This document shows positions 27,051 through 55,989 of a stretch of DNA of 64,000 nucleotides, piece after piece (position 1 is the stretch's first letter; every line of letters begins with the position of its first letter). The position numbers and the translations under genes were made by a program. Origin of the DNA: Felis catus. Lineage: Eukaryota. The stretch is taken from the NCBI RefSeq assembly GCF_018350175.1, contig NC_058383.1, positions 7,874,001-7,938,000 of the forward strand, in the 5' to 3' direction. The notes beneath the pieces are model-generated. The model searched no databases. It saw nothing but the letters and a program-made list of their open reading frames with translations, and was not told the DNA's origin.

Positions 27051-27162
27051 AAACGAAAAAGGGCTCAACTCTGGCATGGCGCCCCCAACATCTTCTCTCA
27101 TCCCACCGCACATCTTCCCACCGCACTCTGTGATTTTTGTGGGCCGTGACCCCCTGCTCCAG

Positions 27163-27234
27163 CTGCTTTCCCACGGAAACGACTGTTTCCCACGCCATCC
27201 GCTGGAGGGCGCTGGTCGGGAGGCTGAGGCCCTG

Positions 27235-27282
<48 letters not shown>

Positions 27283-27420
27283 GCGTTGAGCGTCTTCGTC
27301 GCGAGCTTCCAGAGAAGGGGCGGCCAAGGCGAGAGCGCGCGGGGGGGGGGGGCGGCAAAGGGGTCCCAGACACGCGGCGGCCCGGCTCTGGCGACGCAGC
27401 GCCCAGACCCGGGTCCTCCC
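27163..27420 (+). pseudogene. Isolated MUC3-like transmembrane-exon relic (copy A)
   Basis: GTGACCCCCTGCTCCAG|CTGCTTTCCCACGGA matches the copy-B acceptor at 46444-46475; RWRALVG, poly-Leu, VALSVFV; shared intronic GCGGCAAAGGGGTCCC; frameshift, deletion, donor GC. Confidence 0.85.
27232..27279 (+). repeat. CTG trinucleotide repeat: CTGCTGTTG(CTG)13
   Basis: Counted directly; pure run 27241-27279. Confidence 0.97.
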
Positions 27421-29039
27421 ACCCTCCCCGCGTGCAGAGCAAGGCGGGGGTTGTTGGTCCCGGATGTCCTCAGGGGCTGCCCCCTCCTAAGGCTGGGGGG
27501 CGCCAGATGAGGCCACTGCCCCATCCCCATTCAGCGGGGTCCTTGACCTGAAGAGTGGGGGCATGAGCCTCGCAAGACACTTTCCTCCCCTCGCTCCACC
27601 CCATCCTGTGACCCCTTCTGAAGACTGGCCTAAAATGCATACTTGATCCAAGTTACACGAGTTCACATGATTCCTGCTCAGAATCGCCCATCCACCCTAT
27701 TTGTACCTTTTTCCTCTTTTGCCAGTTTTGAGCATTTCACACAACGTAGAGCCTGTCTCTGGATAGACTCGTTTTATTGTCACAGCTCTGTGAAATATTT
27801 AACCGCTTTTTAGTATTCCCTATGCAGTTAACCAAACATCCTTTGGCTTATTCTCACCCCCTTTCTGGCTGGGGGGAGGGTGGAGTGGGGGTGGCATATC
27901 CTTGTGCCGCCGGATTGGGTGATTACAGACATCAGTCCGCTTCTCGGGGTTGATCTCTGCTGGTGAGCTGTAATGGTTCCCAAAGGAGTCACATGTGTTA
28001 TTTCAGCGGGAGTGCATTTAGCCCCACGTTTACCATTTATCTGCCCTGATGTCAGAACCTCAGAGCAACTCAGGATCCTCAAAGGAGCTCAGCATCCACC
28101 TGACGGGGTCTCTGGTGTCCTGATCCGCTCCCTGCTCAGATCCTGGTTCCACACAGGCACCAGCCACCACGGATGCTGGTTTTGGTTTAAATGTTAGCAA
28201 GGCATGTTGGATGACTCCTGGGAAACAGCTGGTGAGGTCGCCCTGGGTACTGTCTGCGTTTGGCACCCAGGGGGCTCCTGAAAACATTCCCAGCTGCTCC
28301 CGGCTGCCCTGCAGATATCAGCCAGCCAGTGAGAGCCATCCCAGGGCAGAGGTTCCTTGGATGAACCTGGCTGTGGTTCCAGTGACAGGAAGCATCAGAC
28401 ACACAAGTTGGGGGGAGGGCTTTCTGGGATCCCTCATCTTGTCTGGGGACAGCGCAGGCTGGCTGCAAGGTCGGCTGTATGGCCAGCGGTCCTGTGGACA
28501 GCTGGAGCCCCGGGGTGAATATCCACAATACTGGGGACACCAGAGTGGGGTCGGTGAGTGGCCCAGACCCAGCGTTATGTCCACATTAGTGTTTACTGGG
28601 GGCTTGTAGTTTAGCAGCCGCTGGCCCCGATGCTTTGCTAAACGTTTAATTCTGGCTGATGACGTTTGCAGTGGCCGGGTGTACCTGTTCTTTATCCTTG
28701 GAATGGAACAGTCGGGAAATCGAAACTGATGCACACGGAGGTTACGTTTTTGCTTACGTCCTCAGCTGATAAGTGGAGGCCCTGGATTCAGATTGAGAAC
28801 TCTGTCCTGTGATAGGGTTGGCTTGCTTTGGAGTCACTCGTCTTTTCTGTGACTTCCAGGTAATTAACTCCCGGCGTCCAAGACAAGAAAAAGCGTGGGG
28901 CAGGTCTCTGCACAAGTCTCCTGTGCTTCCTGGACACTTCCTCCCTGCCTCCCACTCTCCAGAGACCACCTCCCTTCTGTCCCTCCTCCCTCGCCCTCCA
29001 TTTCTCTCCCTCCCTCTCAGGCCTCACTCGGGTCTGGGT

Positions 29040-29548
29040 GAGAGGCCCCAGCAAGTGGGGACGGGGCAGAGAGTGAGGGAGAGAGAGAATCCCAAGCAGG
29101 CTCTGCTCCGTCAGTGCAGAGCCCGATGTGGGGCTTGAATCCGTGAAACTGTGAGATCATGACCTGAGCCGAAACCAAGAGTCAGGGGCTTAACCAACTG
29201 AGCCACCCAGGTACCCCTTTAATGTTTATTTTTGAGAGAGAGAGAGAGGATGGGGGGAAAGAGATAAAGAGGGAGAGAACAGGGCACAAACGGGAGGGGC
29301 AGAGAGAGAGGGAGACAAAGAATCCAAAGCAGGCTCCAGGCTCTGAGCTGTCAGCACAGAGCCCGATGTGGGGCTCCAGCTCACAAACTGCGAGGCCATG
29401 ACCTGAGCCAAAGTTGGACGCTTAACACACCTAGGTGCCCCTCAACTTCTTTTTTAAAAAGTAAGGTCTACACCCGATGTGGGGCTCAAACCCACGACCC
29501 TGAGCTCAAGGGTCGCATGCTCTACCAACTGACCCAGCCGGGAGCCCC
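29040..29548 (-). mobile_element. Three stacked SINEs (29040-29218, 29221-29442, 29450-29548)
   Basis: Repeated GAGATCATGACCTGAGC-like and CCAGGT(A/G)CCCC motifs, GA tracts, T tails. Confidence 0.88.
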
Positions 29549-30669
29549 CATAAATTCTTAAATAAACAAACAAAGCTAGGAGAAAACGTGTGCTTTACAG
29601 AAGTAACTTTTCCAACCCGAAAACAAACCAACCCAAACCAAAGCAGACTTTGGAAACAACAAGATTGTAAGTAACAGGAAGTAAAAACTGAGTGGCTGCT
29701 TATAGCCTTTGCTACTCAGCAAATGGTTCATCAGTTTGGTTCAAAGCTTCAATCGTATTTTAAGTGAGTGTTTACTGTTCAGTATTCTGTTGATACTCAT
29801 GGCGCCCCCAGTATTTATACGAAAGCAGTGGCTGTTCCTGGACTGACTGTGGGGTAGGCGTGTGTTAACAGAACTTTCTGAGACACCAGGCTCTGGAAGA
29901 AAACTAGACAAGAGGGAAGAAATAAATGTCAGCGAGAGGTAAGACTCAATTTCCCTGATTTGATACCACTTTGTTGAACCATCAGAAAAGTCCTCAACCT
30001 AACCTGGACTGCCTCGCACCCAATCGTCAGAAGTCAATGATCATATGAGAAATGTTTGCATAAACTTTTTGTGAGTTTTTTTTTTTTTAAACTCTATAAA
30101 TGGTGCCATTCATTTCTCTAACTTAACATAAGCATTTTCTCTTAAGGGGATAAAGCCTATGCTTAAGTTTACTAGGACCTTTGTTCTCTTTGGAATCAGA
30201 AACAATAGCATATGAGGTCATATTATCTTCGGGAAACTGGCAAGCCGTTGCCCTCTCGTTCCCTCCCTGGACTTCCCTTTCTCAAGCCAGAGTGTTTATA
30301 TTAAGTCATAAAGCCTGGGATGAATTTATAGAAACTGTATTAAAGCAGGAGTGATAAAGTGAGATTACCAATAAGAAAGTTAAAAACAGAACTGGCTGGT
30401 ACTTGGAAATGTTACTTTATGGTCTTAGGTTCCTGAGTAGCGTGAGCAGAGCACTTGATTTTATTCTAGGAATCACTCTGCATGCATAAAACAAACAAGG
30501 AAGGAGAGAGGGAGAGACACGCAGAGAGAGAGATTAATGGGGAAAGTTACACACGGCATAAACCTCCCCTGGAAACAGAAGTTTCAAAAACCATTTTGAA
30601 AACCATTTTACCCATGACAATCCTGAGTCATAGACATACCACAGACATACAGATGACCGCCAGGCACAG

Positions 30670-32202
30670 GAAAAGCTGCTCAATATCACTCGTCAGGAAA
30701 ATGCAAATCAAAACCACAATGAGAGCTCATCTCACACCTGTTAGAACAGCTGTCCTCAAAAACACAGGAAATAACAAGTGCTGGCGAGGATGCAGGGAAA
30801 AGGAAACCCATGTGCACTGTGGGTGGGGGCGTAAATTAAATTGGTGGAGCTGCTCTGGAAACAGGATGGAGGTCCCTCAAAAAATGAAAAATAGAACTAA
30901 CATAGAGTCCAGCAATCCCACTTCTGGGTATTTATTAAAGGAAACAAAAACACTAACTTGAAAAGATATCTGCACCCCTCCCTTCACCCGTTATTTGCAG
31001 TGTTATTCACAATGACCAAGACATGGGAACAACATGGGCTCCTGGGTGGCTCAGTCAGTTGAGCTTCTGACTCCTGGTTTTTGCTCAGGTCATGATCCCA
31101 GGGTCATGGGATTGAACCCTGCATCAGGCTCCACACTGAGCACTGATCCTGCTCAAGTCTCTCTCTCTCTGCCCCTCTCCCTGGCTCGTGCTCTCTCTCA
31201 AATAAAAAAAATAATAAAAAATAAAAGTTGCTAAAAGTATACATAAAAAAAAAAGACAAGGGGCGCCTGGGCGGTTAAGCGTCCAACTTTGGCTCAGGTC
31301 ATGATCTAACGGCTTGTGAGTTCGAGCCCTGCATCGGGCTCTGTGCTGACAGCTCGGAGCCTGGAGCCTGAATCGGATTCTGTGTCATCCTCTCTTTCTC
31401 TGCCCCTCCTCCACTCGTGCTCTGTCTCTGTCTCTCTCAAANNNNNNNNNNNNNNNNNNNNNNNNNNNNNNNNNNNNNNNNNNNNNNNNNNNNNNNNNNN
31501 NNNNNNNNNNNNNNNNNNNNNNNNNNNNNNNNNNNNNNNNNNNNNNNNNNNNNNNNNNNNNNNNNNNNNNNNNNNNNNNNNNNNNNNNNNNNNNNNNNNN
31601 NNNNNNNNNNNNNNNNNNNNNNNNNNNNNNNTAAGTGAAACATAACTCAGAGAAAGACAGGTAGCATATGATCTCACTTATATGTAGAATCTAAAAAAAC
31701 CAACAAAACAAAACTGATCTCATAATGCAGAGAACAAATTGGTGGTTGCCAAAGGTGGGGGGTGGAGCGGAGGGAGGGTGAAATGAGTAAAGGTCAAAAG
31801 GTACAAACTTCCAGTTACAAATAAGGAAGTCCTGGGGCACCTGGGTGACTCAGTTGGTTGAGCGTCCAACTTTGGCTCAGGTCATGATCTTGCGGTTCGT
31901 GAGTTCGAGCCCCACATCAGACTCACTGCTGTCAGGCTGTCAGTGCAGAGCCCGCTTCAGATCCTCTGTTCCCCTCTCTCTGCCACTCCTCACTTGCACT
32001 CTCCCAAAAATAAATAAATATTAAAAAAATAGAAATATTAAAAAAAAAAAGTAAGTCCTGGGGATGGGACCATGTGACATGGTTAGCAATACTGAACTGT
32101 GTATTTGACAGTTGCTAAGAGCGTGGGTCTCAGAAGTTCTCATCACAAGAAAAAGATGTGTATGTAGCAATGGATGTTAACTACACTCGTGTGGTAATCA
32201 TT

Positions 32203-32565: not shown

Positions 32566-32972
32566 CTTGTCTTAATCTCTTCTACAAAGTGTCTAGAAAT
32601 GACACCAGATGTTACCGTCTCTGCTCCTCACACCATGCCACATATTCACACAGGACCCCATGTTGAAGGTACCTCCTTCCCACTTCCAGGGCTTCTGTGA
32701 GCACATTGCCAAATGTCCTCGGTTCTGGGGGAGGGGGCCTCCCCCCACTTTTCTGACATAACTGCAGCGTCCAGTTTCTCCATTATAGGAGTTTCCTCTC
32801 CTTCACTATGGGTAGTTCTCCCATAACCTTGACTACTGGGTTGAGCCCATCGGCACCCCAGATTCTATCATCTCCATTAGCACAGCTCTGAGAAGCACCC
32901 AAAGACCAGCCGGGGACTTGGTCCTATCTGCCAGGGTCGCTGATAAACCACAGCTACCACCAGGATCCCAGC

Positions 32973-33411
32973 TGTGATAGGTTGTCATTGTTCAGTATAT
33001 TTGTTTTCCCTCCCTGGAGTGGATTATATCTCCCCACCCCACTGATAGCAGGCTTGGCATCAGAAGCGTGGTGCCTCTCCCCGAGGAGACATTCCTGTCC
33101 TTCAAACTCAGGGCGACTCGCTTTGTGACTTGCTTTGGCCAACAGAGTGTGCGTGGAAGGTATGAGGGTCATGTCTGCAAAGAAGCCTTAGGAGCCAGCC
33201 CATGGCTTTGTCATCTGTCATTTCGCACTGCTATGCTATGAGACTGCAGTGTCCCAGATAGGGGCTGCTCCGTCAGCCTGGGTCCCTGAGTGAAGAGCAC
33301 AGACTTTAGGGTGGACGAGGAGAATGAGTGAGAAAGAAACCTTTGCTGCGTAAGCCACTGGGTCTTCAGGATTGTTTATCTCAGCATCACCTGGTGTCTC
33401 CTGACTAATCA
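32973..33411 (+). mobile_element. MaLR solo LTR, MLT1 type (H/I/J-like)
   Basis: TG...CA ends, TGTGACTTGCTTTGGCCAA, GGCTGCTCCGTCAGCCTGGGTCCC, 3' GAGAAAGAAACCTTTGCTGCGTAAGCCACTG...CTGACTAATCA. Subfamily by resemblance only. Confidence 0.8.
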
Positions 33412-33823
33412 CTGGTTCCACTCGTCTCAAAGCCGAGTATCAGCTTTTCACCTGCCATCATCCAAATCGGCGCCCCCTTCCCCACTCATCATGACTTCAG
33501 AGACAACTGTGGTCAGCACCTTGACTCCTACTACCTGACGCCATCCATGATAATTGCTACCACAATTCAGATTATGACACAGTGCAGGGGACGGTGAGCA
33601 CTTTGACCTAACCTCTCCAGCAAGCCTGACTCACTCGCGGGGAGAGAGGGAGTGACCTGCCCTTGGTCTTATTTTTACACTTTGTCCCTAAACATTGGCT
33701 TTTGGGGGGTGGTTCCAGCCTGTACTTTCCCGGATTCGTGTCTTCCCCCAGGTACCTGTGACAATGGTGGGACCTTGGAGAGAGGCCAGTGCCCCTCACT
33801 GTTTTCCCATGAACTGCACTTTA

Positions 33824-34044
33824 TTTTTTTTTTATTTTTTTTTAACGTTTGTTTATTTTTGAGACAGAGAGAGACAGAGCATGAACGGGGGAGGGACAGA
33901 GAGAGGGAGACACAGAATCCAAAACAGGCTCTAGGCTCTGAGCTGTCAGCACAGAGCCCGAAGCGGGGCTCGAACTCACGGACCGCGAGATCATGACCTG
34001 AGCCGAAGTCGGCCGCTTAACCGACTGAGCCACCCAGGCGCCCC
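33824..34044 (-). mobile_element. Young felid CAN-SINE with 14-bp TSD, inside the relic EGF exon
   Basis: TGAACTGCACTTTA at 33810-33823 and 34045-34058. Confidence 0.95.
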
Positions 34045-35092
34045 TGAACTGCACTTTAATGTCACCTGGCCTGTGGGGTGAGGTGCTGGTGCTGGAAAGG
34101 GGTCACTTGGTAGGTGTCACCAATGATGGGGCTAACCTCACTACCCTCAGCCCCAGTCTGCCCACCTCTGCCTCTTCTCCCCAGAAGGCTTCTTGTCTGT
34201 CTCGAACCCTGCCCGGGGCCATTTTCATTTCTGGATGCCCCTCTGGGTCTCGGTTGTACACGCGCGGGCTCCAGAAAGGCTAAATCTGACGCAGTGGCGC
34301 CTCCCAGCCCCAGGGTAGCACGGTGGCACAAGTGGCTGAGGCGGTTGCTGCCGTGTTGCTTCCTTTCCAGGTTTCTCACGAAGCCTGGGGCCCAGCATGG
34401 GGAGGCGACATTCTCCAACGGCAGCAAGGGGACTGCCTCCAGCAGTTTTCGAGGGACTGTCCCTTCCCCTGGTCAGGTGGGGCTCCGCGAGCTCGGGAGG
34501 CAAAGTGGCCACTGCCCCAGCTCAGAATGCACAGGTGTCACCTTCCCCTCCTGGGGAGGCATTCAGATGACTAATACCTGCCACGAAATGATTATTAAGT
34601 GCCACGGGAGAGATGTCGGTAGCAAGCACCATTACATCTCGGGAATGAGAGAGGTCACTTCCTGATCACACATGGCTTCCTGGTGGAGGAGGGAAAGGGT
34701 GGATGGGGAGGAATCAGGGGCCTGATGCTGGGTTGGGACCCATCTCCCCGGGAGCCCGGTGACCCCCTGCAGCAGGGTCCGTTCGCCTCTGTGTCCTCAG
34801 CACAGTGACTGGCATATTGTGCTTTGTGCCCAACACTGGTGCTTGACCATAAATCCCATCCCGCGGAGATTCTTCTGAAAAACAACGAATACCTTTCCGA
34901 AAACAAACGTTTTCGTATTGTGCCAACTGGTCAAAGATGTTAAGAAATCGAAGTGGAGGATTCCAAGAAGGCCTCAGCTCCCTGTGGGCTCCTTCCCCCG
35001 AGCCTCCTCTGCTGGGTTGCTGTCCAGCCCTGGGCACGCCCTCCTCTGGCTGATTTATCTTTTTATTCCTTTGCTCACTTCCCCAACTGGAC

Positions 35093-35154
35093 CACACACA
35101 CGCACGCACACACACACACATACACACACACACGCGCACACACACACACACGCA
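35093..35154. repeat. Imperfect (CA)n/(CG)n microsatellite
   Basis: Seen directly. Confidence 0.9.
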
Positions 35155-35839
35155 CTCAGAGGCCAGAGAAAGATGCAGCGCGACCCGAAGAGGCCAGGTG
35201 CGTGTCTGGTGCTTAGCCAGCCCTGCTTGGTGAGTACCCACAGTGCCCCATGTTTGCAATTCCTTCAGCGACTCTGGGTCGTGACGCGCTCGCCCGTGAG
35301 ACGTGAGAGGCACACACCTTCAAGGAGCTCCCAGTGAGCCTGGCATAGGTGAGCTTGCCAGCCATCCCCCGGCCCAGTCCCTGCCCCGCACGTCTCGGGT
35401 CTCAAAGAAAGAGAAGGATTCACAGGGTTCCCCTCGGCGAAGACTCCAAGGCCTGAGGGATTACTGTATGGAATTTTATATTCATAATTTTATATTCTTT
35501 TCTTTGTAGAGAAACCCCCAATTGTGGCGAATGGCACTTTGACCTCTGCCTTCAAATATTTGCCCCTGGACTCAAGTCCTTTGCTACACCCGCCTCTACC
35601 TCCTCCGAGCTTTCTGGACCCCCTTCACTCTTCAGGTCACCGGAACAGAGGCACCATCTAACTGTGTCACCTTGTGTTGGAGCTGACGTCACCTCCTGGT
35701 CTGAATTCACATGGGAAAGCCATTTCTTGACTGAATGGGACTTCCATGAAAGAATCCCCCTGCATTACCTTATGTTTGAAATTATTATTGTTACTGGCTT
35801 TTTTACTGATAGGAAGCATTCATTTTTAAAAACTGTGGT

Positions 35840-36632: not shown

Positions 36633-39600
36633 GCTTTGGTTGTAGGCTTTCAGTCCAAGTCGTGGTAAGGGCAGGATGGAGACAGGGAAGAGAAAGGGGC
36701 AGAGGGAGTGAGGGGAACAAGTTTTCACCTCTCTCTCCTGCAGCTGGGACTGAAAATAAGGAAAGGCTGTGAGAGTCAGCCCCAGACTCCAGAATCCAAG
36801 GTCTTGACCAAGTGTATTCCCCATCCAGTTTTGCTGCTTCTTGGGAGGGGGGTGGTGCTGGGGAGGGGAAAGGTAGGGTCCAAGGAACTGCTCTGAGTGG
36901 CCCAGGTAGGCTGGGGGTCGGGCTGCCAGCAGCTCTCCCCATCTGACACCTCCTGGGCTAGTCTTGTCTCCTTGATGTCTTCCCTTCCCACAGCAGTGAG
37001 GTCAGATACCTGGAGGAGGGGGAGAGAGGAGTGAGGTGGACGGTGCAGAGGTGAACCTGTGCTTGGCCCCCACGTCCAGCAGGGTAGCTAACCGTGCCTT
37101 TCAGTTCCTGCTGGGTGCTGCTCTGTGCGAAGGGCTGCTTCCCGTAGCTGCCCCCGGTTCTGGCTCCTGCTCTGCCGCTGCACCAGACCCATAAAGCTGC
37201 TCAGGCTCCTCGACTTCCTCAGGGTGCTCAGGACCTCCACGGGGGCCAGAGGTGAGGGGGGCGGGCGGGAAAAGGGCTGCAGCGACCCTCTGGATATTCC
37301 AGGGCAGAGGTGTGTGGGGGGAAGTGACTCTGAAGCCTAAGGGGAGGCTCAGGAGGGATTCCTCAGAGCTTTGTGTGCAGGGGGCACTGAGACGGGGGAG
37401 GAGGAAGAAAGCCGGGTCCAGCTGGTGCCGCTCTCCATCCAGGACCAGGCAGGTGGCAGGTGTATGCATCGGGAGGGTGGGCATAACCTCTTTCCGGAAG
37501 AGTGCTCTTCCCACTTTGATTTGGTTTCCTGAGCCCCACATCTCTTCTGTCCTTCCCCCTACCAGCCCCAGTGCTCCCTCCTCTCTGGACTCTTCCTTTA
37601 CTTCTGGTGGTGCTTTCTCCATGATAGCCTTGACTCTGCCCCTGGAGGCGTCTCCTCTCTCTGGAGACGTCTCTGCCTTTGATCTCTGTCCCCTCCTCCA
37701 GCTCTGTCCCTATCTCTCCCACCCCCCACCCAGCCCATGTTTCTGGGCACAGCTGTCATTGGCAGGGCTGGGTTGGGGAGGGATACTGATTGCTTCCAAA
37801 AGGTTGGGTGTGTACCATCCAGTGTGAGGTCCAGGGCCTTCTCTCTTCTATTCCTTAGGAACTCCACAATTCCTCTGTATTTCCCTTTCCTCTGTCTCCT
37901 GGGGTCTGCTCCTGAACCCCAGTCCTAGACCTTCCTAACCTAGGAGCCCACAGGCCATCCTCTCACTTACCTCTAAGGCTACCTCCTGGCTCTAGAAGCT
38001 CCAACCCAGGGATCTTCATAATCCTCACCCCCATCTCCCTGACACACCCAGCTAGGCTGAGAAATGAAACCCCAGCTCTCAGAACAAAGATGTATTGAGT
38101 CCAAGGTGAAGAAGAGGCTGATGCTGAGGAGGTCTGGGCACTTCCTGCTTGCAACCACTGTCGCTGCAGGAGTCTCCCCGCCACTCAGCCCCAGCATTAT
38201 GAGATCTCTGACCCTCACTCTTACCCCCTGTAAAATGGGGTTGATGATTATGGAGTGAGGGGTTTATGTTTGTAAACTAATTAACCCAGTGGTCAAAATA
38301 AAGTGGGTGATAGAAAATATGTCTGTTTTCGTTAACACTTACTGCAAAACCTTCAGATTTTTGGGACCCATGCCTATCTGTTCAAAGCTTCCTTCTCTGT
38401 CCAGTCTCTTGGCCTACTAGTGTGGTCCTCTCTCCCTGTCCTTCAATCTCAATAAAGTCTGAGCCTCAGTCTCTGGTTTTCCCTTTGCAGCTCTCCGTGC
38501 AGATATCCCCTCTCTGACCCAATGGCTCCTGTGTCTATGATGTGTTGCCACCCCCAGCCTGGGCTTGGCTGGGCTCCCTTGGAAGAGGAAAGTTAGCCCA
38601 GACAGCAGTGTGTCATAGGGAGAAGGACAGCGGAGAGCCAAAGGGCGGGACTATGGGCAGCAGGGGGTGGAAGAGGAAGGAACAGAGTAAGGGAAACATG
38701 CATGTGTGGGGAAAGGGGTGGGGTGGAAGGACCCTCAGCTGAACCTGCGTGTTCAGCACAGCCATCCCAGGGCTAGAAAGTTCCCACTCAGAAGAGGAGG
38801 GCAAGGGACCGAGGGCACCCTCTTCAGAACCTCAAAGGCCCTAGCCCCAAGCTGCCTCTGATGGAGGGACAAGCAATGGAACTTCCTACCTTCTGCGAAA
38901 CATATCTGGAAAATGGCATGGTAGTAAAAAGCTTACATGGTGTTTAGAGTAATGAAACAACCTGCAAACGAATCCCTCTGTTCTCTCGTCAATACAGGCA
39001 CTTTCCCCATGGACGCATCCACTTCCGCTGAGCTTCTCCTCGGAGCAGGAGTGGCTCACACCGCTCTCAGCAACTCCCCCACGCTCCAAAGGCACAGCAA
39101 GGTGGCCACTCACCGTCCCCAGCAGGGCCTCTCCAGCTGCCAACAGTAGGGAACGCACACTTAAAATTTCCACCACCTCCCCCTACTTTAAACCTATTTC
39201 TGAAGCAGTGCTCAAAACTACAGTCAAGACCAACACCTCAACCATCCCGATGTCCAAGTTTGTCATCAAGGCTGAAACCACTCCACCCACCCTCATTGTC
39301 TACACGAGCACCATAAAGTGTATCAATCCCACGAGCCTTATAATCACTGCCGCTTACCCTGCCACCACCTGCATGACCCCAACTACCACCAAGAGACTCA
39401 CCTCTGCCATGATCTCTCCTCCCATGACCATTACCACTCTGGGGAAGACTCTCACAGCCATGGCCCTACTCTCTTCCTCTGTCCCAACCACGCACACAAC
39501 CTTCCATATGCCCACATCCTCTACAACTGGTAACACAAACAGGATTAGCCTGACCACAGCAAGCATTCATACAACCAGGTCTCTTACCCCAATAATCGCT

Positions 39601-42600
39601 TCTACCTCTATTGCCCCTTCTCTAACTGCCACGAACATCTCGGCAACAGTAACTGATCACAACTCTTCACCCATCGCCAGTACCGTCTTGATTATGACCA
39701 ACACTTCACTTCCTAACACCACCGTTACATTTAAAACAGTGACTGCCACCACTCATGATCCCACATCAACAAGTGTATTAACAACCCCTACAACACAAAG
39801 TGTATATCTGCTTCCACTGAAGTGACTGCCACGCTAAGTACACCAACAACAATCGCTTTGAAAACAATGAGCTCCACGGAAATGAAGCTTACGTGACAGA
39901 AACTCCTTCAACTTCTCCAGGCATGTCATCAATCACCCCAACAAATACAACTGTTTCTGCTACATCTACCACCTCTGAAACCGCCCTGGAACCCATTACC
40001 ACCCACATGACATTCACAACCACAGAACCACACTTCTCCACTGCAGCCACTACACACATGGGGAAGACAACCATCACACCTCATGCCACACCCCCTGGAA
40101 AACCACACTTATTCCTACACAGGACATTTCCACAGCGTCTTTCATGACAGAAATTACTTCTCCTCCCACAATCGCATCATTAATTACTCCCAGGAATACA
40201 GTCAATTCTCTGACATCAACCTCTTCTACCCCAGTGACCGCCAATCCCTTGACATCAGCCACGAGTATGTGTCTGTCTTCTCCACCTGCCCCATACACAA
40301 AACCAGTCTCCAGTTGGATCGCAAACATTACCCCTATATCTACCTTGATTATTGCTCCCTATAACCCACACCATGTCCACCCCTACATCTCCCACTATTA
40401 CTGGCACCATAGCTGCAACTGAAATCACCACTCCTATCAACACTTCCACCATTGCCACCTTGAACACAGCCTCTTTGCCCATTTCCTCCACTCTAGAAAC
40501 TGCCTCCAATGCTACTACAATCTTGGTAACAACCACCACCCCTAAAATACCACACAGTCCTCCAGGAGTCACTTCTTCAAATATCTACTCTACAGGAAGC
40601 ACGACCACATCAGCAATAACCCCATCTCCCACCACTGGTACCCCGAGGCTAGCCGTCACCATAAACTCATCCTCTGTTAGTACAGGCATGCCTGCCTCAA
40701 CACTGACAACCATCACCCCCACATCCAGGGGTACCAATGGTTCATTCATTACCATTCCTGACCTCACCTCTACAAGCACTGTTTTCAAAATGTCCACAAT
40801 CCCCACATGTATCATCCCATCTCCCCCAGCCTCCCAAAATACAGACACAACATGCAGTGTCATCACAACCTCTTCCACAAGGCTTACTCTGGCGCCCATG
40901 CTCACCAGTACCCACAGCACTCCCCCTCCCACCCTTGCTACACACACTCCAGTTACATATGCAGGCTCATCTTCCACGTCTACCAGCAGCAATGGGACCA
41001 TTCGGACAGAGAGTACTACCTCAACTGCAACGAGCACAAATACATCACACACAAATGCTAAATCCACCCCGGCACCCACTACCACTGACACACACACAGC
41101 ATCCCCGACCACAGGACGACCCTCTTCTACTAGATTTACTACATACACAGGCAAGGTGACTGTCACACCCTCTCATGCCACATCCACCTGGAAAACCACA
41201 CTTACTCATACAGGGGATGTTTGGACACAGTCTCTCACCATGGAGATTACTTCTCCTCTTGCAACTGCATCATCAATCACTCCCATGAATATGGTCAATT
41301 CTCTGACATTTATCACCTCTACTCCAGTCACCACCAATACTGTGACATCAGCCATGAGTATGAGTCTATCTTCTCCACCTGCCCCAACCGCAGTCAGTCT
41401 CCTCTTTGACAACAAACGCTACCCCTGTATCCACCTTGATTACTACCTTCCCTAGTACCCATGCTGCATTCACCCCTACAGTCACCATGGCCACAACTGA
41501 AATCACCACTCCCACAAACACTTCTATCTCTGCTACCTCGAGCACAGCCACTTCACCCACTCTCTCTGCCCCAGAAACAGCCATAACTGTTACTAGAGTG
41601 TTGGTAACACCCACCCCCACAATGTCACACAGTACATCTTGTGTTTCTCCTACACTTTCTTTCCCTACTCTGAGTACATCTACAGACGCGCTGACTACTT
41701 CTTTCGGTACTATTTCCTTTTCAATACCCACAACAATAATGTCCTCTTCTCTATCCTCCGCCAGTGTAAATTCAATGCTCACGACCACCCCTAACTCTCT
41801 TCCTACATTCTCACCTCTCTCTGGTATGGAAAATACAGGGACTTCTGTCACTGCTTTCACTACTCTTTTTTCATCCGAAACTACAAGAACTTCTCCAACC
41901 ATGTCTTCTCTAAAAGACCTTTGCGACTGAAACAACCACCACTTGTTTTATTTCTTCTACTACCCCATGTCCAGAATCTATATCAGTTACGATAGTGCCT
42001 GCCTCTCCCACTACTTCATGTATGGAAATGGGTCCAAGTAGTGAAGTTACTTCGATGCCTAACATCCCAATGTCAGTGTTCACCTCTACTACTGAGATGG
42101 CTACCTCCCCTAGTTCCACCAGTATGACAACTGTGTTTCCTAGGCATACGGACACTTCTGCTCCCGTTCTGGAAACGCATCCTACCAACAGCATAATGGA
42201 TGCTCCTAGTTCTATCAGCATTGGGACTGTCCCCAATTACACGGTTTTGATAAGCACTCAAAGACCCACCAGTGGAAGCTGGATGAGCACCAATTCTGTA
42301 ACCGTCCCACATATGCCTGGCTTCATGAGCCTCCCACTGACCATGAAACCAAGCAGCAGGTTTCCAACTGCCATGGTGGCTTCAATCAAGTTGACTCACT
42401 CCACCCCACCCACCATCAAGATTCCAGAAGCACCGGTAGTCATCTCTCAGACTACCACCACCTTTATGTCACCCAGGGCAACTTCAACCACTACTCAGAT
42501 GACCACACAGTCTAGACCGACTACACCTCAGGTTGGACTTACTGCTTCCCTGTTCCGTCTTCTCTCTCCCCTAATAAATTTCTGTGTCACCAAGGGCAAA

Positions 42601-43065
42601 CCCTATCCTGAACTTCCCTTTCTTACTGTGTTGCCCAGGCACCTGTGACCATGGTGGCACCTGGATGCTAGGCCTATGCCACTGCCCTTTGGGGTTCTCT
42701 GGGGACCACTGTGAGCTCCAGGAGATCAGGTGCCAGAATGGAGGTAAATGGGATGGCCTCAAGTGCCACTTCCCTAGCATCTTCCATGGCTACTGTTGGA
42801 GTTTGTGGTGGAAGAGGTGGATCTGGGTGAGTTGTCAGAGCCCTGCCTTTTGCACTTTCTCCTGGGAGGTGCCACTGGCTCTCTCTGGGCCCAGCCCTGC
42901 GGTTACCTGTTAGTATTCATGCCATTTTGCCTAATTCTGCCATTCTTGCCTTCTCTCTCATGCTTCCCTCTACCTCATCTCATGCCCCTTTTTCACCCTC
43001 ACCTCCAGGAGGTGGTTGGACCACACTCCTTCCTGTGGTCTCCTCCCAGTCTGGGCTGCTCCGAG

Positions 43066-43833
43066 CTGTATTAATTTCTAATTGCCACTGTAACAAATTA
43101 TACAAACTTAGCGGCTGAGATAATGCAAATTTATTATCTTACAATTCTGTAGAGTAGGAGTCTAACGTGAGTCTTACTGGGCTAACATCAAGGTGTCGGC
43201 AGGGCTGTGTTCTTCTCTGAAGGCTTTAGGGGAGAATCCATTTCTTTGCCCTTTTCAGGTTCTGAAGCCTCTCACATTCCTGGTCTCAAGGCTCCCTCTC
43301 TCCATCTTCAAAGCCAGCAACATTTCATCTCTGTGTCTTTTTTTTTTTCAAAAAATATTTTTAAGTTTATTTATTTTTGACAGAGAGAGAGGCAGAGAAT
43401 GAGCAGGGGAGAGGCAGAGAGAGATGGAGACACAGACTCAGAAGCAGGATACAGGCTCTGAGTTGTCAGCACAGAGCCTGACGCGGGGCTCGAACTCACA
43501 AACTGCGAGATCATGACCTGAGCTGAAGTCAGATGTTGAACCAACTGAGCCACCCAGGCGCTCCATCTGTGTCTTTCTTCTGTAGTCACATTTTCTTGTG
43601 ACTGATTCTGACCTCCTGTCTTTCTCTTCCACTGTTAAGGACTCTTGTGATTATGTTGAGCCCACCCAATAATCCACGTTAATTTTCCCATTTTAGTCAG
43701 ATGATTAGCAATTTTAATCTACATACAATCTTGATTCCTCCTTGCCATGCAGCATAACATATCCAGAGGTTCTGGGGACTAAGACATAGGCATCTTTGGG
43801 AGCCGTCATTCTGCCTCCCACTGAGGCAGACAA
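43066..43833 (-). mobile_element. MLT1-type LTR split by a CAN-SINE (43336-43561)
   Basis: ACAAACTTAGCGGCTG...ATCAAGGTGTCGGCAGGGCTG...CATCTTCAAAGCCAGCAAC...CATCTTTGGGAGCCGTCATTCTGCC; CATC..TGTGTCTTT on both sides of the SINE. Confidence 0.8.
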
Positions 43834-45414
43834 GGGAGAGACCACAGGTCTGACTGCTGTGCCTCCTTACCTCTAACCTTTCCCTCACCTTGGCACAACT
43901 TATCCTAGAAGTCCTATCTCCTTTCCCCCTACCATTCATTCAGTCTTCAGGGAACATGGAGAGGAGTGATAGGATGAACCTCTGGATTGTGGTGGTGGCA
44001 ATGGTGGTGAAGTGACCAGAACAGGGCATATTGTGCGCAGACACTGTGGGTGCTGAAGGGGATATGGAGGTGTCTGTTGACCAGGAGATCTCCCCTGACC
44101 TCAATGACAACACTTCCAAGGCCTACGAGGATTTCAGCGACACCTTCTGGAATCAGGTGACGGGGAAGGGGAGGGAACTCAAGGGTCTTTCCTTGAAGTT
44201 GAGCTTGGGCATCTGGGTGCACTCAGGTCATGAGGTTCAGGTGCAAGTGGAAGTGCAAGGATCCTGGCATTTCGGATGCAGAAGATTTACCAAAATGTGC
44301 AAGGATTCAAGGATGTGGAGATCCTGTCCCTGAGGCAGGAGACCCTTTTGGGGCTATGGAGGTAGTGTTGGGTGGGGGAAGGAGAATGAAGGGTGGGGGA
44401 ATGGAGAAGCCATCCTTTCCTTTTGGAATCAATCAGATTTCAAAAAGAGAGAGGTGGAAGTAGGACATAGGGGAACTAATAACTCCATGGGGAATTTTTT
44501 GGATCATTTTCTGTAGTCATTTCTCTGTAGGAGAGATGCCACCTTCCTTTTGAAGCATGGTTGGAAAGACAGAGATTACATGGGACATGCAGGGAGGTGG
44601 CGCATAAAGGCTTATGGGAAGCCTGGTGTCTGGACAGTAGCTGGTTTCTCTCTGGCTGGCACCTGGCCTGCTGAGTGGTCAGCCCGAGTGAGGCAAAGTG
44701 CCCAGGAGGGCCTGGTTTGATAATGGCTTGATGCAAGGCAGGAGAATGTCAATCATTCCTTGTCTTGCCTTCCAGGCTGACCAAGTCAGGGATGCTGGTG
44801 GGTCCTGAAAATAATGTGTCTGGAATCCCAACTCATTGCCTCTGCCTTCCTCTCACACCAGCGCACTTGTGGTTGGTCCTGGAGGTGACCTTCTAAAGAC
44901 CTATGTGCCCCAGGCCTGGGCACCCTGTAAGACACCCAATCTTCTCGATCCCCTCAGGAATGGCAGCATTGTGGTGCCCTTTAGCCTCCAGCTGGAGAGT
45001 GAGTATGAGAAGGTGAAGACAGTCTTGAAGGAGGAGATCCAGAATGTCAGCCACAATGGGGACAGCTGCCGGAGTGACTAGAGTAAGCCAAGACCGGAGG
45101 GAGGGGTTGGGGCAGAGCCACCAGCTTGGAGAGGAGCCTCTGGGCTCCGGTGCCAGCCCTGGGGTAGGCCTACAGCCAACTGGGCCAAGGATGGGGTTAA
45201 GGAGGGGCTAGTCCGAACCTGGGTGCTGGGGAAGACTCCTTGAAAGTTCTGCTCCAAGTTTTCAGGATGGCTGAGGATGCTTGCTTATTCGGGGGAGATG
45301 AGAGAGGCAAGAGTCACCTTCCCTTGCAGCCCCTCCACATGTCCCCCACAGTGGCAGAGCCCTCTCTGCCCCTCCCCAGGCTTCCCTGCTCTGCTTCCCT
45401 GTCCCTGACCCTCT

Positions 45415-45427
45415 ATTTATTTTTTAA

Positions 45428-45496
<69 letters not shown>

Positions 45497-45642
45497 AGCA
45501 GGGGAGGCGCAGAAAGAGGGAGACTGGGAATCCCAAGCAGGCTCTGCACTGACAGTGCAGCTCAGTGTCATGAACTATGAGATCATGACCTGAGCCCAGT
45601 TCAAGAGTCCAAGGCTTAACTGACTGAGCCACCCAGGCGCCC
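45415..45642 (-). mobile_element. CAN-SINE carrying a compound microsatellite (TG)14(AG)15 at 45431-45488
   Basis: Counted directly; SINE motifs follow. Confidence 0.92.
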
Positions 45643-47574
45643 CTGTCCCTGACCCTTTAACCTCTCTCAATTCCACCTGTGCCTGTGTCCCCCCTAGCCC
45701 TGTGTTTTAGGCCTGACTCCATCAAGGTGACCAATGACACCAGGAAGGAGCTGACCCTGGAAGGTAAGGGTGGGCAAAGGGATGAGTGGCCCCCGGAGGT
45801 CGTGACTCTCCCACCGCGGACATCTGCCCATTGACATTCTTGGGGAGGAGGGAAGACCTTTCAGGAGGCAAGTGGTGTGGCCCCGGCAGGGCTGTCCTTC
45901 CTGGAGCTTATTAGCTTCTCACCTGAGGACCAGCAGGGAAGGTGAGGGTCTTAGGGGCCGACCCTCCCCTCATCTAATCTCAGGGTCCACTCCACCACAC
46001 CCCACCCTCGGAAACATAGTTTCTCCCATCTGTTTTCAGCGTGATTATAACCAGGCCCCTGAATAGAGTGGATGAGGTCCTTGTCTCTCTGCACCCCCCT
46101 CCCACCTCCAGCCATCTGTCGCCGCCCCACTGCCAAAGGCTATGAGGATTTCTTCTTCCCCTCGGTGGAGGAGAACCGGCTCCGCTGCGTCACCAAATGC
46201 ACGTCGGGCGTGGATGGCGCCATCGACTGTCACCAAGGCCAGCGCCTTGTGGAGAGGAGCGGTCCCGCTCGCCGGTGAGGCCCTGAGCACCCGCGGGAGC
46301 CCCGCCCACCGCCCGCCCGGCCCGCGGCCCCGCCCCCTCGCCCCCCACCCCGGGGGGGCCCCCCCCCCCGCCCACCTGCCGGCGCCCACGGAGTCCAAGT
46401 ATGTTAGCCGACCCGCCCAGATGGTGGTGAGGGTCTGTGACCTGTGACCCCTGCTCCAGCTGCTTCTCCACGGACACGCGCTGGTTTTCGGGCCCGCGCT
46501 GCGAGGTGGCTGTCGCCTGGAGGGCACTGGTCGGGGGCCTGACGGGGGCCGCGGCTCTGCGGCTGCTGGCGCTGAGCATCTTCGTTGCTCGCTACAGCAC
46601 AGCCGGCCGAGGCGGAGGCAGGGAGCGCGTTGGGGGTGGGCGTGAGGGCGGCAAAGGGGTCCCCCCGCTGGGGCGGTCCTGCTCTGCCAGCGCGTCGCCC
46701 CAACTCAGGTCCTGGGGCGGCGACGGACGTGCGATGAGGACACTGTGGGGACGTTTTCGGACTTGGGCTTGGAGGACGAGCGAACAGGTGAGTCCTGCCT
46801 CCCGGGGAGGGGGGCAGAGGCTTCCCCGGGCGCCACTGCGGGCCTGGGGAGGACCCAACTACCTCCCTTGCCCGAGGCAGACACGGACCTCCTGCCGGGA
46901 AGCTTGAGTAGCCACTTCCCTGGGCACCCCCCGAAGGAGGCGCGGGTCCCGCACGCGCCATCCCTACAGGGCAGGCACTGGGCACAGGAGCCCCCCTCCC
47001 AGGCCTTGCTTTCCCCACCCTTCCTTCCCTTCTCCTTTCCTGCCCTTCTCCTCTCTTTCCTCCTGTTCTCCCCCCACCCCCCGCCCGCCCTTTTCTCTCT
47101 CTCTAGTCAAGGATGAAAACTTCCAGGTGGCCTTGGAGGACGTGGACATCAATGCGAGCGCGAGGGCGCCAAGGGGGGATGGTGAGGAGCTCTCCCAGAT
47201 CCAGGTCCAGAAGCCCTCCCGCCAGCCACCAGGGCAGGGGCCGGGCTAGGACCAGGAGGCAGTGGCTTTCCAGCCAGTCTGAGCAGGGTGGCTCCCTGTT
47301 CCCACTCCCTCTTTCACACATATTCTGTGGCGGGTGCACATCCAGAGACCTGAGGTGGCCTCCTCCTTGCTGTGGGCCCTGCGCCTCCCCCTCCCCCCTC
47401 CCCTGCCCCCTACCCCCAACGGTAGGAAGGAACCATACACACCGCATCCGTTTTGAGAGATGGCCCGAGGACTCGTGCAGCGCCGTCTCCCGGTTACCTT
47501 GGGCAAGATCCGACCAGCCCCCGATCCTCATCCTTCTCCCAGCTTGGGTGAAACCCACCTGGAGACCCGGTTCA

Positions 47575-49597: not shown

Positions 49598-49661
49598 ATG
49601 CTGGTGATCTGGATCCTGACACTGGGTCTCTGGCTCTGGGCACCTGCCCCAGTGACACGGG
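49598..49661 (+). CDS. MUC12: Mucin-12-like exon 1 (signal peptide)
   Basis: MLVIWILTLGLWLWAPAPVTR+G, phase-1 donor G|GTGAGT; resembles recalled human MUC12 MLVIWILTLALRLCASVTTVTP; fits ACHE-MUC3-MUC12 synteny. Confidence 0.85.
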
Positions 49662-50729
49662 GTGAGTGAGACTGGGGCTGGCACTCCCTGGGGGGCCAAT
49701 GCATGCTGGCCTCAGGCAGGGTTCAGGTGGCTGGCTTCCTCCTTTTCCCTCACTCCCTTTGCAGGGGACGGGGCTGCCAAAGAGCTGGACCTGGGCTGTG
49801 ACCTCATCTTACCTTTGGGGGTGCTAAAGGGGTCACTCTGGAGACGTGTGGGTCCAGAGCAAGGGGCATGGCCTGTGTTGTGCAGTTGATGACCTATGCC
49901 AAGCCCTGACCCGGGGGCTGAAAGGGGGCTGGCCTCCCCCCGTCTCCCCTCTCCAGCCTTCCCCCTGCGGGGAACGGGGACTTTTTCTTCACTTGGATGG
50001 TGGCCTCTGCCTGCCTTCGTCCTGTGGCCTGCATCTGCCCAGGAGGCCGGGTCTTTCCAAAGAGGCACCGAACGGGCTGCCAGCCCTGGGGGAAGGAAGG
50101 ATCCAGCATTTAGCAGCTTCTCCCTTGCGTGGGGAGAGCTCAGGAGACCCTGGAAAACCCCTCTAGTTACAAATGGTTGGAGGGCTGGGGGGGAGACACA
50201 GGCTCTGGGTCCTTGTTGAGCCTGTCATGGCCATTTCTCTGGGAAGCAACTGGTTTCAAGCTAATTTCCCGTGGGGTCCCTCACCAGAGCAGACTTTCTG
50301 AGCCCCCACCCCAGAGACCAGGAAAAACCGGAGGGAAGGGGTGGGCAGGACAGATGCTGGGGTGAGGAGTGTGGGGGGGAGTGAGCCCAAGGCCCCAGGT
50401 AGAAGAGGGGGCTTTTGAGTTGAAGGCCCTGTAGGGTTGTGGGAAGGGGTGGCGAGTGGGCAGGGGGAGATGGGGAAGGGAGTCTTTGGTGCCCTGCAGG
50501 GCAATAGTGAGATAACCCACGCAGGGAGTTCTGAGACGTCCCCCTCACGAACACGGGCCCTTAGGCGCCACCATACCCTCAAGTACCTGCTTCTCCCCTG
50601 CCCGGACACCTTTGAGGCCCAGAAGCGCAGCCCTTGGGAGTTGCCAATGGGCAAGGATGAGAGGCTGCGAGTGTGAACTTTGTGGATTTCAGGACACCAA
50701 GAAAGTACATTAATGATAGCTATAGTAGC

Positions 50730-51205
50730 TTTTAAAAAAAAATGTTTATTTAGTTTTGAGAGACACAGAGAGAAAGATAGAGTGTGAGCAGAGGAGGGGC
50801 AGAGAGGGGGACACAGAATCCGAAGCAGGCCCCAGGCTCGGAGCTGTCAGCACAGAGCCCTGTGCGGGGCTCAAACCCATGAACTGTGAGATCATGACAG
50901 GAGCTGAAGTCAGATGCCTAACTGACTGAGCCACCCAGGTGCCCCTATATTAGCTTTTTTAAAAGAAAGTTTATTTATTTATTTTGAGAGAGAGCATGTG
51001 CATGCGTGTGCACACGCGTGCACACACACGCACACACACACACAAAGAGCAGGGCACAGAGAGAGGGAGAGAGAGAATCCCAAAGCAGGCTCCGTGTTGT
51101 CAGTGTGGAGGCTGATGGCGGGCTTAATCCCATGAGCCATGAGATCAGGACCTGAGCTGAAATCAAGAGTCAGATGCTCAACCGATCGAGCCACCCAGGT
51201 GCCCC
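50730..51205 (-). mobile_element. Two tandem CAN-SINEs (50730-50945, 50955-51205)
   Basis: Diagnostic motifs; the second carries CA/CG repeats. Confidence 0.9.
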
Positions 51206-51949
51206 ATAGAGATATTAGCTTTAAGGCAAAATCCAGAGAACAGGAAGCTATGAGTGGGGTCACCGTCAGGAGGGGTCCTCCCTGTCCCTGCTCCCCAGGC
51301 AGCCCCCAGGTCTCTCTCTGGTCAGGCTGTTGGGGGAGAGGGGTGGTGGTGGTGATGATGACAGTGATGTTTAAGGGTCCAACAATCAGCAGGTGCATTG
51401 CCTCTGTGTACCTTACGGTGAGTTAGAGATAATCAGCACTAGCGGAGACCCCCTGTTCCTAAGGCGCTCAGTGTTGTGTGGAAAGGATAACACCGACTCG
51501 AGTGAGCCCATTGGCATGCAAGAGTCAGAAAGCATCTCTCTCTAAGTGCAGAGAGCTGTCAGGAGTGGAGAGGTCAGGCAAGTAGAGCCATTCCAGAAGA
51601 CTCCAGAAGGTCTGATGATACCCAGAGCGCCCCCCCCCCGCCTCCCACCCACAGAGGGCTGTTCGCAATGTCATTTCACAGCATATAGCACATATGACTC
51701 TCACAAGGAAGATTGTGTAAGGAAGTGGAGGCAGACAGGTGACTGAGGCTCAGAGAGTGATCTATCTGGGGCCGCACAGCAAATAATTAACAAGGTGCCA
51801 CCCATTTGACAGAAGGTTTGTACTGCCCCATCCCTGAACTGGAGGACCTCAGCCCTCTGCACCCCCCACCCCCACCCCCACCCCCCGCTTGTATTCTGGG
51901 AGGGGTTCAGATATCAGGTCAGAGACTCTGGCTGGCACCTATAGTTTTC

Positions 51950-52148
51950 TTTCTTTTTCCTTTTATTTATTTTGGGGAGAGCGCAAGCTGGGGAGGGGCA
52001 GACAGAGGGGGACAGATGATTGGAAGAGGGTTCTGCACCGACAGGCTGACAGCAGCAAGCTTGATGTGAGGCTTGAACTTGCGAATCGCACGATCGTGAC
52101 CTGAGCTGAAGTCAGACGCTCAACCGACTGAGCCACTCAGGGACCCCT
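51950..52148 (-). mobile_element. CAN-SINE
   Basis: Diagnostic motifs; CCTATAGTTTTCTTTCT occurs on both flanks. Confidence 0.88.
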
Positions 52149-54539: not shown

Positions 54540-54872
54540 CGGTTGACCCCTGAACGACACAGGGGTTGGGGCGCTGACCGCTGTGTAGTCGAAAATCCCC
54601 ATGTTACTCTCGACTCCCACAAAACGTAGCTACTCACAGCCTTACTGTTGACCAGAAGCCTAACCGATAACATAAACAGCCAATTGACACATATTTTGGG
54701 TGTTCTGTGTATTATATACCGCATTTCTACGATAAAGTGAGCTAGAGAAAAGAAAGTATTATATTACAAAAATCATAAAGAAGAGAAAATACATTTACAG
54801 TGCTGTCCTGGAAAAGATCTGTGGGCAAGTGGACCCACGCAGTTCAAAGCCGTGCTATTCAAGGGTCAGCTG
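54540..54872. mobile_element. Tigger1-type non-autonomous DNA transposon (333 bp)
   Basis: Inverted termini CGGTTGACCCCTGAAC / ATTCAAGGGTCAGCTG, TA on both flanks (54538-54539, 54873-54874). Confidence 0.85.

Positions 54873-55927: not shown

Positions 55928-55989
<62 letters not shown>

What the first reader, a model, noticed from the sequence alone, without database searches (positions are those of the whole stretch)
32570..34110. Fossil MUC3 paralog whose coding exon is split by an ancient MLT1 LTR
PTS-end homology stops at ...CCAGGATCCCAGC, a 439-bp MLT1-type LTR follows (32973-33411), and homology resumes at CTGGTTCCACTCGTCTCAAAGCCG (LVPLVSKPS, like PLTMKPSS in copy B). The donor, short intron and GTCDNGGT exon follow. 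Established: MLT1 MaLR elements spread before or around the eutherian radiation. Inference: this copy died very early, so MUC3 tandem duplication predates the primate MUC3A/MUC3B pair and orthologous remnants should exist between ACHE and MUC3A in other mammals.
Basis: partly seen in the sequence, partly recalled or inferred. Interest (0 to 1): 0.7.

Follow-up and report, generated by a model that had tools for sequence, protein, structure and literature searches.

The report
Ancient MUC3 fragment split by LTR
A cat-family genome keeps a dead 0.8-kb scrap of a duplicated gut-mucin gene (MUC3), cut in two by an old retroelement end, and its decay likely dates the duplication to about the origin of placental mammals, long before the primate MUC3A/MUC3B pair.

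Summary
Window 32566-33797 is a decayed copy of the end of the MUC3 PTS exon, the short intron and the first 45 bases of the EGF exon. It is 63% identical (K2P 0.53±0.04) to the MUC3 gene downstream (copy B). A 439-base repeat (32973-33411, TG...CA, decayed 5-base target duplication) sits between two collinear flanks. The repeat is old: no close copy in the genome, longer matches at K2P 0.29-0.56, against 0.08-0.21 for carnivore SINEs. The name MLT1 is recalled; no repeat library could be run. The distance points to a duplication at or before the placental radiation, but trees cannot separate the carnivore stem from the placental root, and orthologues in other mammals could not be checked. Nothing shows that this was ever a whole gene: no first exon, SEA or tail exons were found, and homology ends at 33797, not 34110. 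No spliced RNA was seen. A second, less diverged relic (TM exon, 27136-27417) lies upstream, and copy B is itself broken. Verdict: a real, old, functionless duplicate fragment of a familiar kind, with a testable lead on the MUC3A/MUC3B pair.

The parts
32566..32972 (+). Relic of the MUC3 PTS-exon end, 5' flank (matches copy B 41942-42330); stops and frameshifts
   Evidence: 61% identity, K2P 0.56
32968..32972 (+). Left copy of the likely 5-base target-site duplication (CCAGC)
   Evidence: 2 of 5 identical to the right copy, the 3 differences all transitions
32973..33411 (+). 439-base solo-LTR-like repeat, TG...CA, old dispersed family; MaLR/MLT1 type by recall; stops in all three + frames
33412..33416 (+). 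Right copy of the likely target-site duplication (CTGGT)
33417..33593 (+). Relic of the PTS-exon end, 3' flank (matches copy B 42333-42516), two frameshifts
   Evidence: E 2.3e-11; 66%, K2P 0.48
33594..33751 (+). Retained short intron, GT...AG (158 bases; 107 in copy B, 42532-42638)
   Evidence: 59%, K2P 0.63
33752..33797 (+). First 45 bases of the MUC3 EGF exon (G-T-C-D-N-G-G-T-L-E-R-G-Q-C); rest of exon not detectable
   Evidence: 75%
33824..34044 (-). Carnivore-type SINE with an intact target duplication of about 13-14 bases, inserted just behind the relic; much younger
27136..27417 (+). Second relic: intron end, TM exon with a (CTG)16 run, and following GC-rich stretch (matches copy B 46434-46713)
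   Evidence: E 2.2e-17; 78.5%, K2P 0.26±0.04
37191..47409 (+). Copy B: full-length MUC3 orthologue, itself broken (ATA at the start-codon place, frame breaks in PTS, EGF and SEA exons)

Best explanation
This is a dead piece of a DNA-level duplicate of MUC3 (PTS-exon end, intron, start of the EGF exon) with an old solo-LTR-like repeat inserted in its coding exon, and the duplication likely happened at or before the radiation of placental mammals. Shown: homology, collinearity, retained intron, frame breaks, old repeat family, absence of the insert from copy B. Inferred mechanism: unequal crossing-over or a local segmental duplication placed a MUC3 copy or part-copy upstream of the gene; a MaLR-type element inserted into the exon, which was possible only if the copy was already dispensable or died then; recombination between its two LTRs left one LTR; later deletions and L1/SINE insertions trimmed the rest. 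It has no product today.
For: Flanks significant and collinear around the insert. Intron kept, so not a retrocopy. Relic-to-B K2P 0.53±0.04 over 673 sites; in simulations 0 of 100 pairs at true distance 0.43 and 7 of 100 at 0.50 measured 0.53 or more, and about 0.6 fits best. Two neutral copies split at the placental root of a cat lineage would differ by about 0.4-0.45 (recalled, from no call). Repeat family old: 8 of 11 other copies aligned over 150 sites or more, K2P 0.29-0.56; copy-to-copy median 0.50 (14 of 28 pairs with 200 sites or more); SINE pairs 0.08-0.21 (7 pairs). MLT1 families other than MLT1A1 and MLT1C2 are spread across eutherians and absent from opossum (PMC10735291, passage). 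Relic no closer to carnivore MUC3 than to afrotherian or primate MUC3; it keeps GQC like tarsier, marmot, elephant and aardvark where carnivores have GLC. Terminal branch 1.0-1.45 substitutions per site against about 0.42 from root to copy B. RNA libraries show unspliced cover and no joints.
Against: Trees do not fix the date: with one profile the best of 37 placements is the cetartiodactyl stem and sister-to-B is rejected (AU p 0.039), but carnivore stem (0.34) and placental root (0.59) both stand; with a profile lacking carnivores and cetartiodactyls, where most of the left flank no longer aligns, the best of 41 is the placental root and sister-to-B is not rejected (p 0.081). At 6 sites that separate Laurasiatheria from other placentals the relic has the laurasiatherian residue in 3 and the outgroup residue in 0. 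The left flank scores best with whales and musk deer (96-104; copy B 62), the right flank best with aardvark, tarsier and elephant. The local rate may exceed the genome average. The MLT1 label and the rate calibration are recalled. The target duplication matches at only 2 of 5 bases.
Confidence: 0.62

Rival explanations
1. Same relic, but younger: duplication and insertion took place on the laurasiatherian or carnivore stem, and a fast local rate inflates the distance. Orthologues would then be limited to Laurasiatheria or Carnivora.
For: Laurasiatherian, ferungulate and carnivore stems not rejected; carnivore and laurasiatherian stems not rejected; 3 of 6 laurasiatherian residues shared; high scores with whales.
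Against: K2P 0.53 is far above the second relic (0.26) and copy B's own internal repeat (0.39) in the same region; repeat family equally old; 0 of 2 carnivore-specific residues shared; right flank favours Afrotheria and tarsier.
Confidence: 0.2
2. The two relics are what is left of an old tandem pair: the TM relic is the tail of a gene in the MUC3A position, copy B is in the MUC3B position, and the LTR-split relic lies in what primates keep as the MUC3A-MUC3B spacer. The primate pair would then be old and made alike by conversion, or re-made by crossing-over between the TM relic and MUC3.
For: TM relic to copy B first exon is 9.8 kb here; MUC3A-MUC3B spacer is 10,939 bases in human, 11,810 on average in catarrhines; copy B to next mucin start is about 2.2 kb here against 2,469-2,491 for MUC3B-MUC12 (PMC9578598 passages). 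The TM relic includes intron sequence and lies upstream of the PTS relic, so one unrearranged copy cannot explain both. The paper leaves the age of MUC3B open.
Against: Only a size match; the interval here holds over 2 kb of carnivore SINEs. No tail exons follow the TM relic and nothing mucin-like lies between it and ACHE. Cattle and New World monkeys are reported with one MUC3 (PMC3056801, PMC9578598). This concerns the setting of the relic, and does not exclude the best explanation.
Confidence: 0.15
3. The relic is the orthologue of a MUC3-like gene still intact in some other mammals (for example the single-EGF gene of whales and ruminants).
For: Best scores with whale proteins (PTS part 204-206; seal 119); cetartiodactyl stem is the top placement; the relic reads GQC-PSLFS, reminiscent of the single-EGF form.
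Against: Whale proteins are 62-65% identical to copy B but 36-38% to the relic; the profile behind held 6 cetartiodactyls in 19; placements inside the group are rejected; 3 shared against 3 outgroup residues at 10 sites; no protein among the 169 held stood out as a closer partner.
Confidence: 0.05
4. Chance likeness of low-complexity sequence on both sides of an ordinary repeat.
For: Self-blastn missed it; the left flank alone is weak against a narrower profile (35.6).
Against: Scores beyond all shuffles at DNA and protein level, correct order of exon, intron and exon, exact collinearity across the insert.
Confidence: 0.01

Closest known systems
Mammalian MUC3 (MUC3A/MUC3B) of the ACHE-MUC3-MUC12-MUC17-TRIM56 cluster (PMC9578598, PMC13643018; passages read); models such as P0001 seal, P0016 tarsier, P0017 elephant
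   Same: Unique PTS-end sequence, short intron, PGTCDNGGT start of the EGF exon, same strand and cluster.
   Different: Only 0.8 kb; frame broken; LTR in the exon; 30-46% amino-acid identity to every MUC3 tested; no first exon, SEA, TM or tail exons in order.
Catarrhine MUC3A/MUC3B tandem pair (PMC9578598)
   Same: Tandem duplication of MUC3 in the same cluster.
   Different: The pair is 87% and 94% identical at its ends and both genes are expressed; this relic is 63% identical to its neighbour and dead, so it is a separate, older event unless conversion reset the primate pair.
MLT1 (ERVL-MaLR) solo LTRs (PMC10735291, PMC5753468; passages read)
   Same: About 440 bases, TG...CA ends, likely 5-base target duplication, decayed poly(A)-signal position near the 3' end, old dispersed family.
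   Different: Subfamily not tested against any library; likeness to the MLT1I/MLT1J group is recalled.

Membership tests
MUC3-derived unprocessed pseudogene fragment | Significant homology to MUC3 rather than MUC12 or MUC17 | tested here: met
   Tiles from 36.9-125 kb (copy B, MUC12, MUC17) hit the relic only from copy B 41942-42684, apart from one hit that runs into the adjacent SINE; protein scores highest for MUC3 models
MUC3-derived unprocessed pseudogene fragment | Intron kept in place (DNA duplicate, not retrocopy) | tested here: met
MUC3-derived unprocessed pseudogene fragment | Reading frame destroyed | tested here: met
   Four frameshifts in the flanks; stops in all frames of the insert
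Once-complete MUC3 paralogue | Remnants of first exon, SEA, second EGF, TM and tail exons in gene order | tested here: not met
   None found at 24.7-36.9 kb except a TM relic upstream, in the wrong order; later deletion cannot be excluded
Once-complete MUC3 paralogue | Spliced transcript | tested here: not met
   0 joints in 4 runs; 3 reads in 12.9 million records of one poly(A) run, tissue not given; weak test
MaLR/MLT1 solo LTR | TG...CA ends and 350-500 base length | tested here: met
   the size range is recalled
MaLR/MLT1 solo LTR | 5-base target-site duplication | tested here: inconclusive
   CCAGC / CTGGT: 2 of 5 identical, 3 transitions, two of them as CpG decay would give
MaLR/MLT1 solo LTR | Dispersed, old family sharing the same 3' end | tested here: met
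   11 other copies on 8 contigs, a lower bound; 3 of 11 alignments end at 33409
MaLR/MLT1 solo LTR | Poly(A) signal near the 3' end | tested here: inconclusive
   AAGAAA here; AATAAA at the matching place in 2 of 8 copies, near-variants in most others
MaLR/MLT1 solo LTR | Match to a Dfam/Repbase MLT1 model | not testable with these tools
   No repeat library; the supplement of PMC10735291 gave 717 characters of text and no hit
Pan-placental ancestral locus | Orthologous relic and LTR junctions in other orders | not testable with these tools
   Only this mammalian genome is held; run search finds near-identical holders only

The most novel reading that the evidence does not exclude
MUC3 was already tandemly multiplied in the ancestor of placental mammals. 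This genome keeps two fossils of that array: an LTR-killed copy and the tail of a gene in the MUC3A position, about one MUC3A-MUC3B spacer upstream of the gene in the MUC3B position. The primate pair would then be an old arrangement kept alike by conversion, or one rebuilt by crossing-over at the old TM relic, and the LTR-split fossil should lie inside the human MUC3A-MUC3B spacer.
Probability: 0.15. Interest if true: 0.55.

Novelty: new member of a known kind. Interest (0 to 1): 0.3.

Why it matters
When MUC3 first duplicated is stated as open in the paper that described MUC3B (PMC9578598). A relic stamped by a datable LTR gives a cheap test: one alignment of this interval to long-read assemblies of other mammals shows whether MUC3 duplication goes back to the first placentals and whether the primate pair reuses an old arrangement. 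The fragment itself has no function in evidence, and old duplicate fragments with LTR insertions are common in mammalian gene clusters, so the interest is modest and mostly for mucin evolution.

Tried and rejected
Self-blastn of the window missed the relic; sensitive scoring was needed. Genome searches with the right flank and the 5' part of the repeat found only themselves; the tool skips common words and is not sensitive at 63% identity. No Rfam family at 26-38 kb. No further MUC3 remnants behind the SINE, in 34060-35820, or in 27420-30640; the one above-shuffle score there is a pyrimidine-rich stretch. A weak protein hit at 30563-30670 (E 0.31) runs into L1-like sequence (recalled) and was rejected. 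The idea that the EGF exon continues behind the SINE to a donor near 34078 was not supported (85 of 500 shuffles). The free tree put the relic with star-nosed mole at 57% support: uninformative. A branch-by-branch test of which derived bases the relic shares with copy B was not done, so that question stays open. No RNA comparison of the relic with copy B or with a silent control stretch was obtained. The original MaLR paper was not held. No paper gave a cat-lineage neutral rate. Searches for a prior description found none: and passages; supplements of PMC9578598 were listed but not read, bioRxiv supplements are closed, and genome-browser annotations could not be seen, so the relic may be recorded there. 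Look-ups of earlier scan notes gave nothing for this locus; one search listed fish and mussel mucins only.

Full report
Setting. The window is G000:C41:7874001-7938000. It reads as a cat-family genome: carnivore-type SINEs throughout (Can-SINEs are Carnivora-specific, PMC6230240 passage), and a Lynx pardinus model shares the odd EGF-exon end of the downstream gene. ACHE on the minus strand near 19.6-21.6 kb is recognised by eye (name recalled, no family scan). Then come a TM-exon relic (27136-27417), the relic in question (32566-33797), a full-length MUC3 (copy B, 37191-47409), and a mucin that starts at 49598. With 120 kb of downstream DNA, tblastn shows two more SEA mucins, with EGF exons near extended positions 68.7 kb and 102.7 kb. 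By order these are MUC12 and MUC17 (cluster order from PMC9578598, passages).

Observation. Both flanks of the insert align to copy B above all 100 dinucleotide shuffles (3262 against max 2479; 6772 against max 1924), while the insert does not. nhmmer tiles confirm this (E 4.4e-7, 4.3e-19) and end the homology at 33797. A frameshift-aware alignment to a profile of 19 mammalian MUC3 proteins, copy B excluded, scores 55, 47 and 68 for the three blocks against maxima of 34, 26 and 28 in 12 shuffles each. The left block ends at column 131 and the right begins at 136, matching the 16 or so bases between them (lemming, lynx, fin whale and Rice's whale rows dropped, hippo and one duplicate seal row not included). 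The intron is kept, with GT at 33594 and AG at 33750. So this is a DNA-level duplicate.

The insert. It is 439 bases, TG...CA, flanked by CCAGC and CTGGT, which differ by three transitions. The genome search gave 12 matches, 11 of them elsewhere, all partial (a lower bound). Extended pairwise, the 8 of 11 with 150 or more aligned sites lie at K2P 0.29-0.56; the three short ones at 0.21-0.32. Among 8 copies, the 14 of 28 pairs with 200 or more sites have a median of 0.50. Seven SINE pairs in the window lie at 0.08-0.21. Three alignments stop at 33409, which supports the 3' end; none starts before 33026, so the 5' end is less firm. Two of 8 copies have AATAAA where this copy has AAGAAA. The label MLT1, nearest the MLT1I/MLT1J group, is my recall; no library was available. 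PMC10735291 (passages) states that MaLR members other than the primate ones, MLT1A1 and MLT1C2 are widespread in eutherians and absent from opossum.

Age. Relic to copy B: 63.0% identity, K2P 0.53±0.04 over 673 sites. Simulated pairs realigned the same way reach 0.53 in 0 of 100 cases at true distance 0.43, 7 of 100 at 0.50 and about half at 0.60. From recalled mammalian branch lengths, neutral copies in a cat lineage would differ by about 0.2 if split at the carnivore crown, 0.35 at the laurasiatherian root and 0.4-0.45 at the placental root; I found no paper to cite for this. In the same region copy B's internal PTS repeat lies at 0.39 and the TM relic at 0.26. At protein level the relic is 31-33% identical to seal, panda and copy B and 34-38% to tarsier, elephant, aardvark and whales, while copy B is 82% to seal and 55-56% to elephant, aardvark and tarsier. 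The relic keeps GQC at the first EGF, as tarsier, marmot, elephant and aardvark do; carnivores have GLC. The insert is missing from copy B and from the open frames of the other mammals' MUC3, so the duplication is at least as old as the insertion (inference).

What goes against a firm date. Placement tests depend on the alignment. In one search (37 placements) the best is the cetartiodactyl stem; sister-to-B is rejected (AU p 0.039), but carnivore, laurasiatherian and euarchontoglire stems and the placental root all stand. In one search (41 placements; profile without carnivores and cetartiodactyls; narwhal, ibex and P0022 also dropped, five taxa added; most of the left flank unaligned) the best is the placental root and sister-to-B is not rejected (p 0.081). 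Diagnostic residues are few and mixed: 0 of 2 carnivore states, 3 of 6 laurasiatherian states with 0 outgroup states, 3 of 10 cetartiodactyl states with 3 outgroup states, and 1 of 1 afrotherian state. Single-protein scores favour whales and musk deer on the left flank and aardvark, tarsier and elephant on the right. I put a date at or before the placental radiation at about 0.6-0.7.

Whole gene or fragment. No first exon, SEA, second EGF or tail exon was found between 24.7 and 36.9 kb; only 3.4 kb separate the relic from copy B's first exon. The TM relic lies upstream, in the wrong order for one gene, and is much less diverged, in its intron parts too (81-85%). So there were two upstream copies, or one was rearranged. 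Whether the LTR killed a working gene or landed in a dead fragment cannot be told. A profile search of 1.84 billion representatives (best 150 listed, 10 named) and two homologue searches gave no protein that is clearly the relic's living orthologue; no marsupial was among the named proteins.

Expression. Five runs on record as RNA held part of the stretch. Two metatranscriptome runs cover LTR and intron without any joint, as DNA would; a poly(A) run gave 3 reads in 12.9 million records, about 2 in 100 of the run; one run of a second organism label holds the whole stretch with 5 differences and a 5-base gap. There is no sign of a spliced product; the test is weak.

A lead. The TM relic ends 9.8 kb before copy B's first exon, and copy B ends about 2.2 kb before the next mucin. 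In catarrhines the MUC3A-MUC3B spacer is 10.9-11.8 kb and MUC3B-MUC12 about 2.5 kb, and the authors could not date MUC3B (PMC9578598, passages). If this is not chance, the orthologue of the LTR-split relic should be sought in the human MUC3A-MUC3B spacer, not only between ACHE and MUC3A. It is a size match only.

What was read. Passages: PMC9578598, PMC13643018, PMC10735291, PMC3056801, PMC5753468, PMC13345508, PMC6230240, PMC2230682 and bioRxiv 10.64898/2026.06.30.735536 (TOGA2, which reports MUC3A across placental orders). None of these passages mentions a relic upstream of MUC3. Supplements were not read except one empty search.

Verdict. Observation confirmed with a shorter 3' end; interpretation partly supported. 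An old, dead duplicate fragment with a solo LTR is a known kind of thing; this instance was not found described. Interest 0.3.

Noticed in passing
window 37191-47409: The full-length MUC3 (copy B) is broken: ATA in place of the start codon, 22-38 stops per frame in the 3.5-kb PTS exon (longest open stretch 368 codons), a frameshift in the EGF exon, a stop at the end of the 44956-45078 exon. The Lynx pardinus model P0008 shows the same odd EGF end, while seal and panda models have whole C-terminal parts: MUC3 may be lost in the cat family.
   Followed up: partly
window 27136-27417: Second MUC3 relic (intron end, TM exon, GC-rich tail), K2P 0.26 to copy B, with the leucine codons expanded to a (CTG)16 run; lies upstream of the PTS relic.
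   Followed up: partly
window 39932-40675 and 41015-41750: Internal imperfect repeat of copy B's PTS exon, period about 1083 bases, K2P 0.39.
   Followed up: no
proteins P0004, P0005, P0007, P0010, P0011, P0013-P0015: Whale and ruminant MUC3 models have one EGF unit before the SEA domain where other mammals have two; it looks like a fusion of the two units.
   Followed up: no
window 49598-64000 and loci L013-L014: MUC12-type gene with a long open PTS frame and repeats of about 1.9 kb and 0.97 kb; looks intact here, followed by a MUC17-type gene in L015-L017.
   Followed up: no
window 43060-43800 and 53200-53790: Two further LTR-like repeats (MLT1 type by recall, minus strand) in mucin introns, each split by a SINE.
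   Followed up: no
window 33168-33638: Five base differences and a 5-base deletion at 33229 in contigs of other runs: the relic varies among individuals or close relatives.
   Followed up: no
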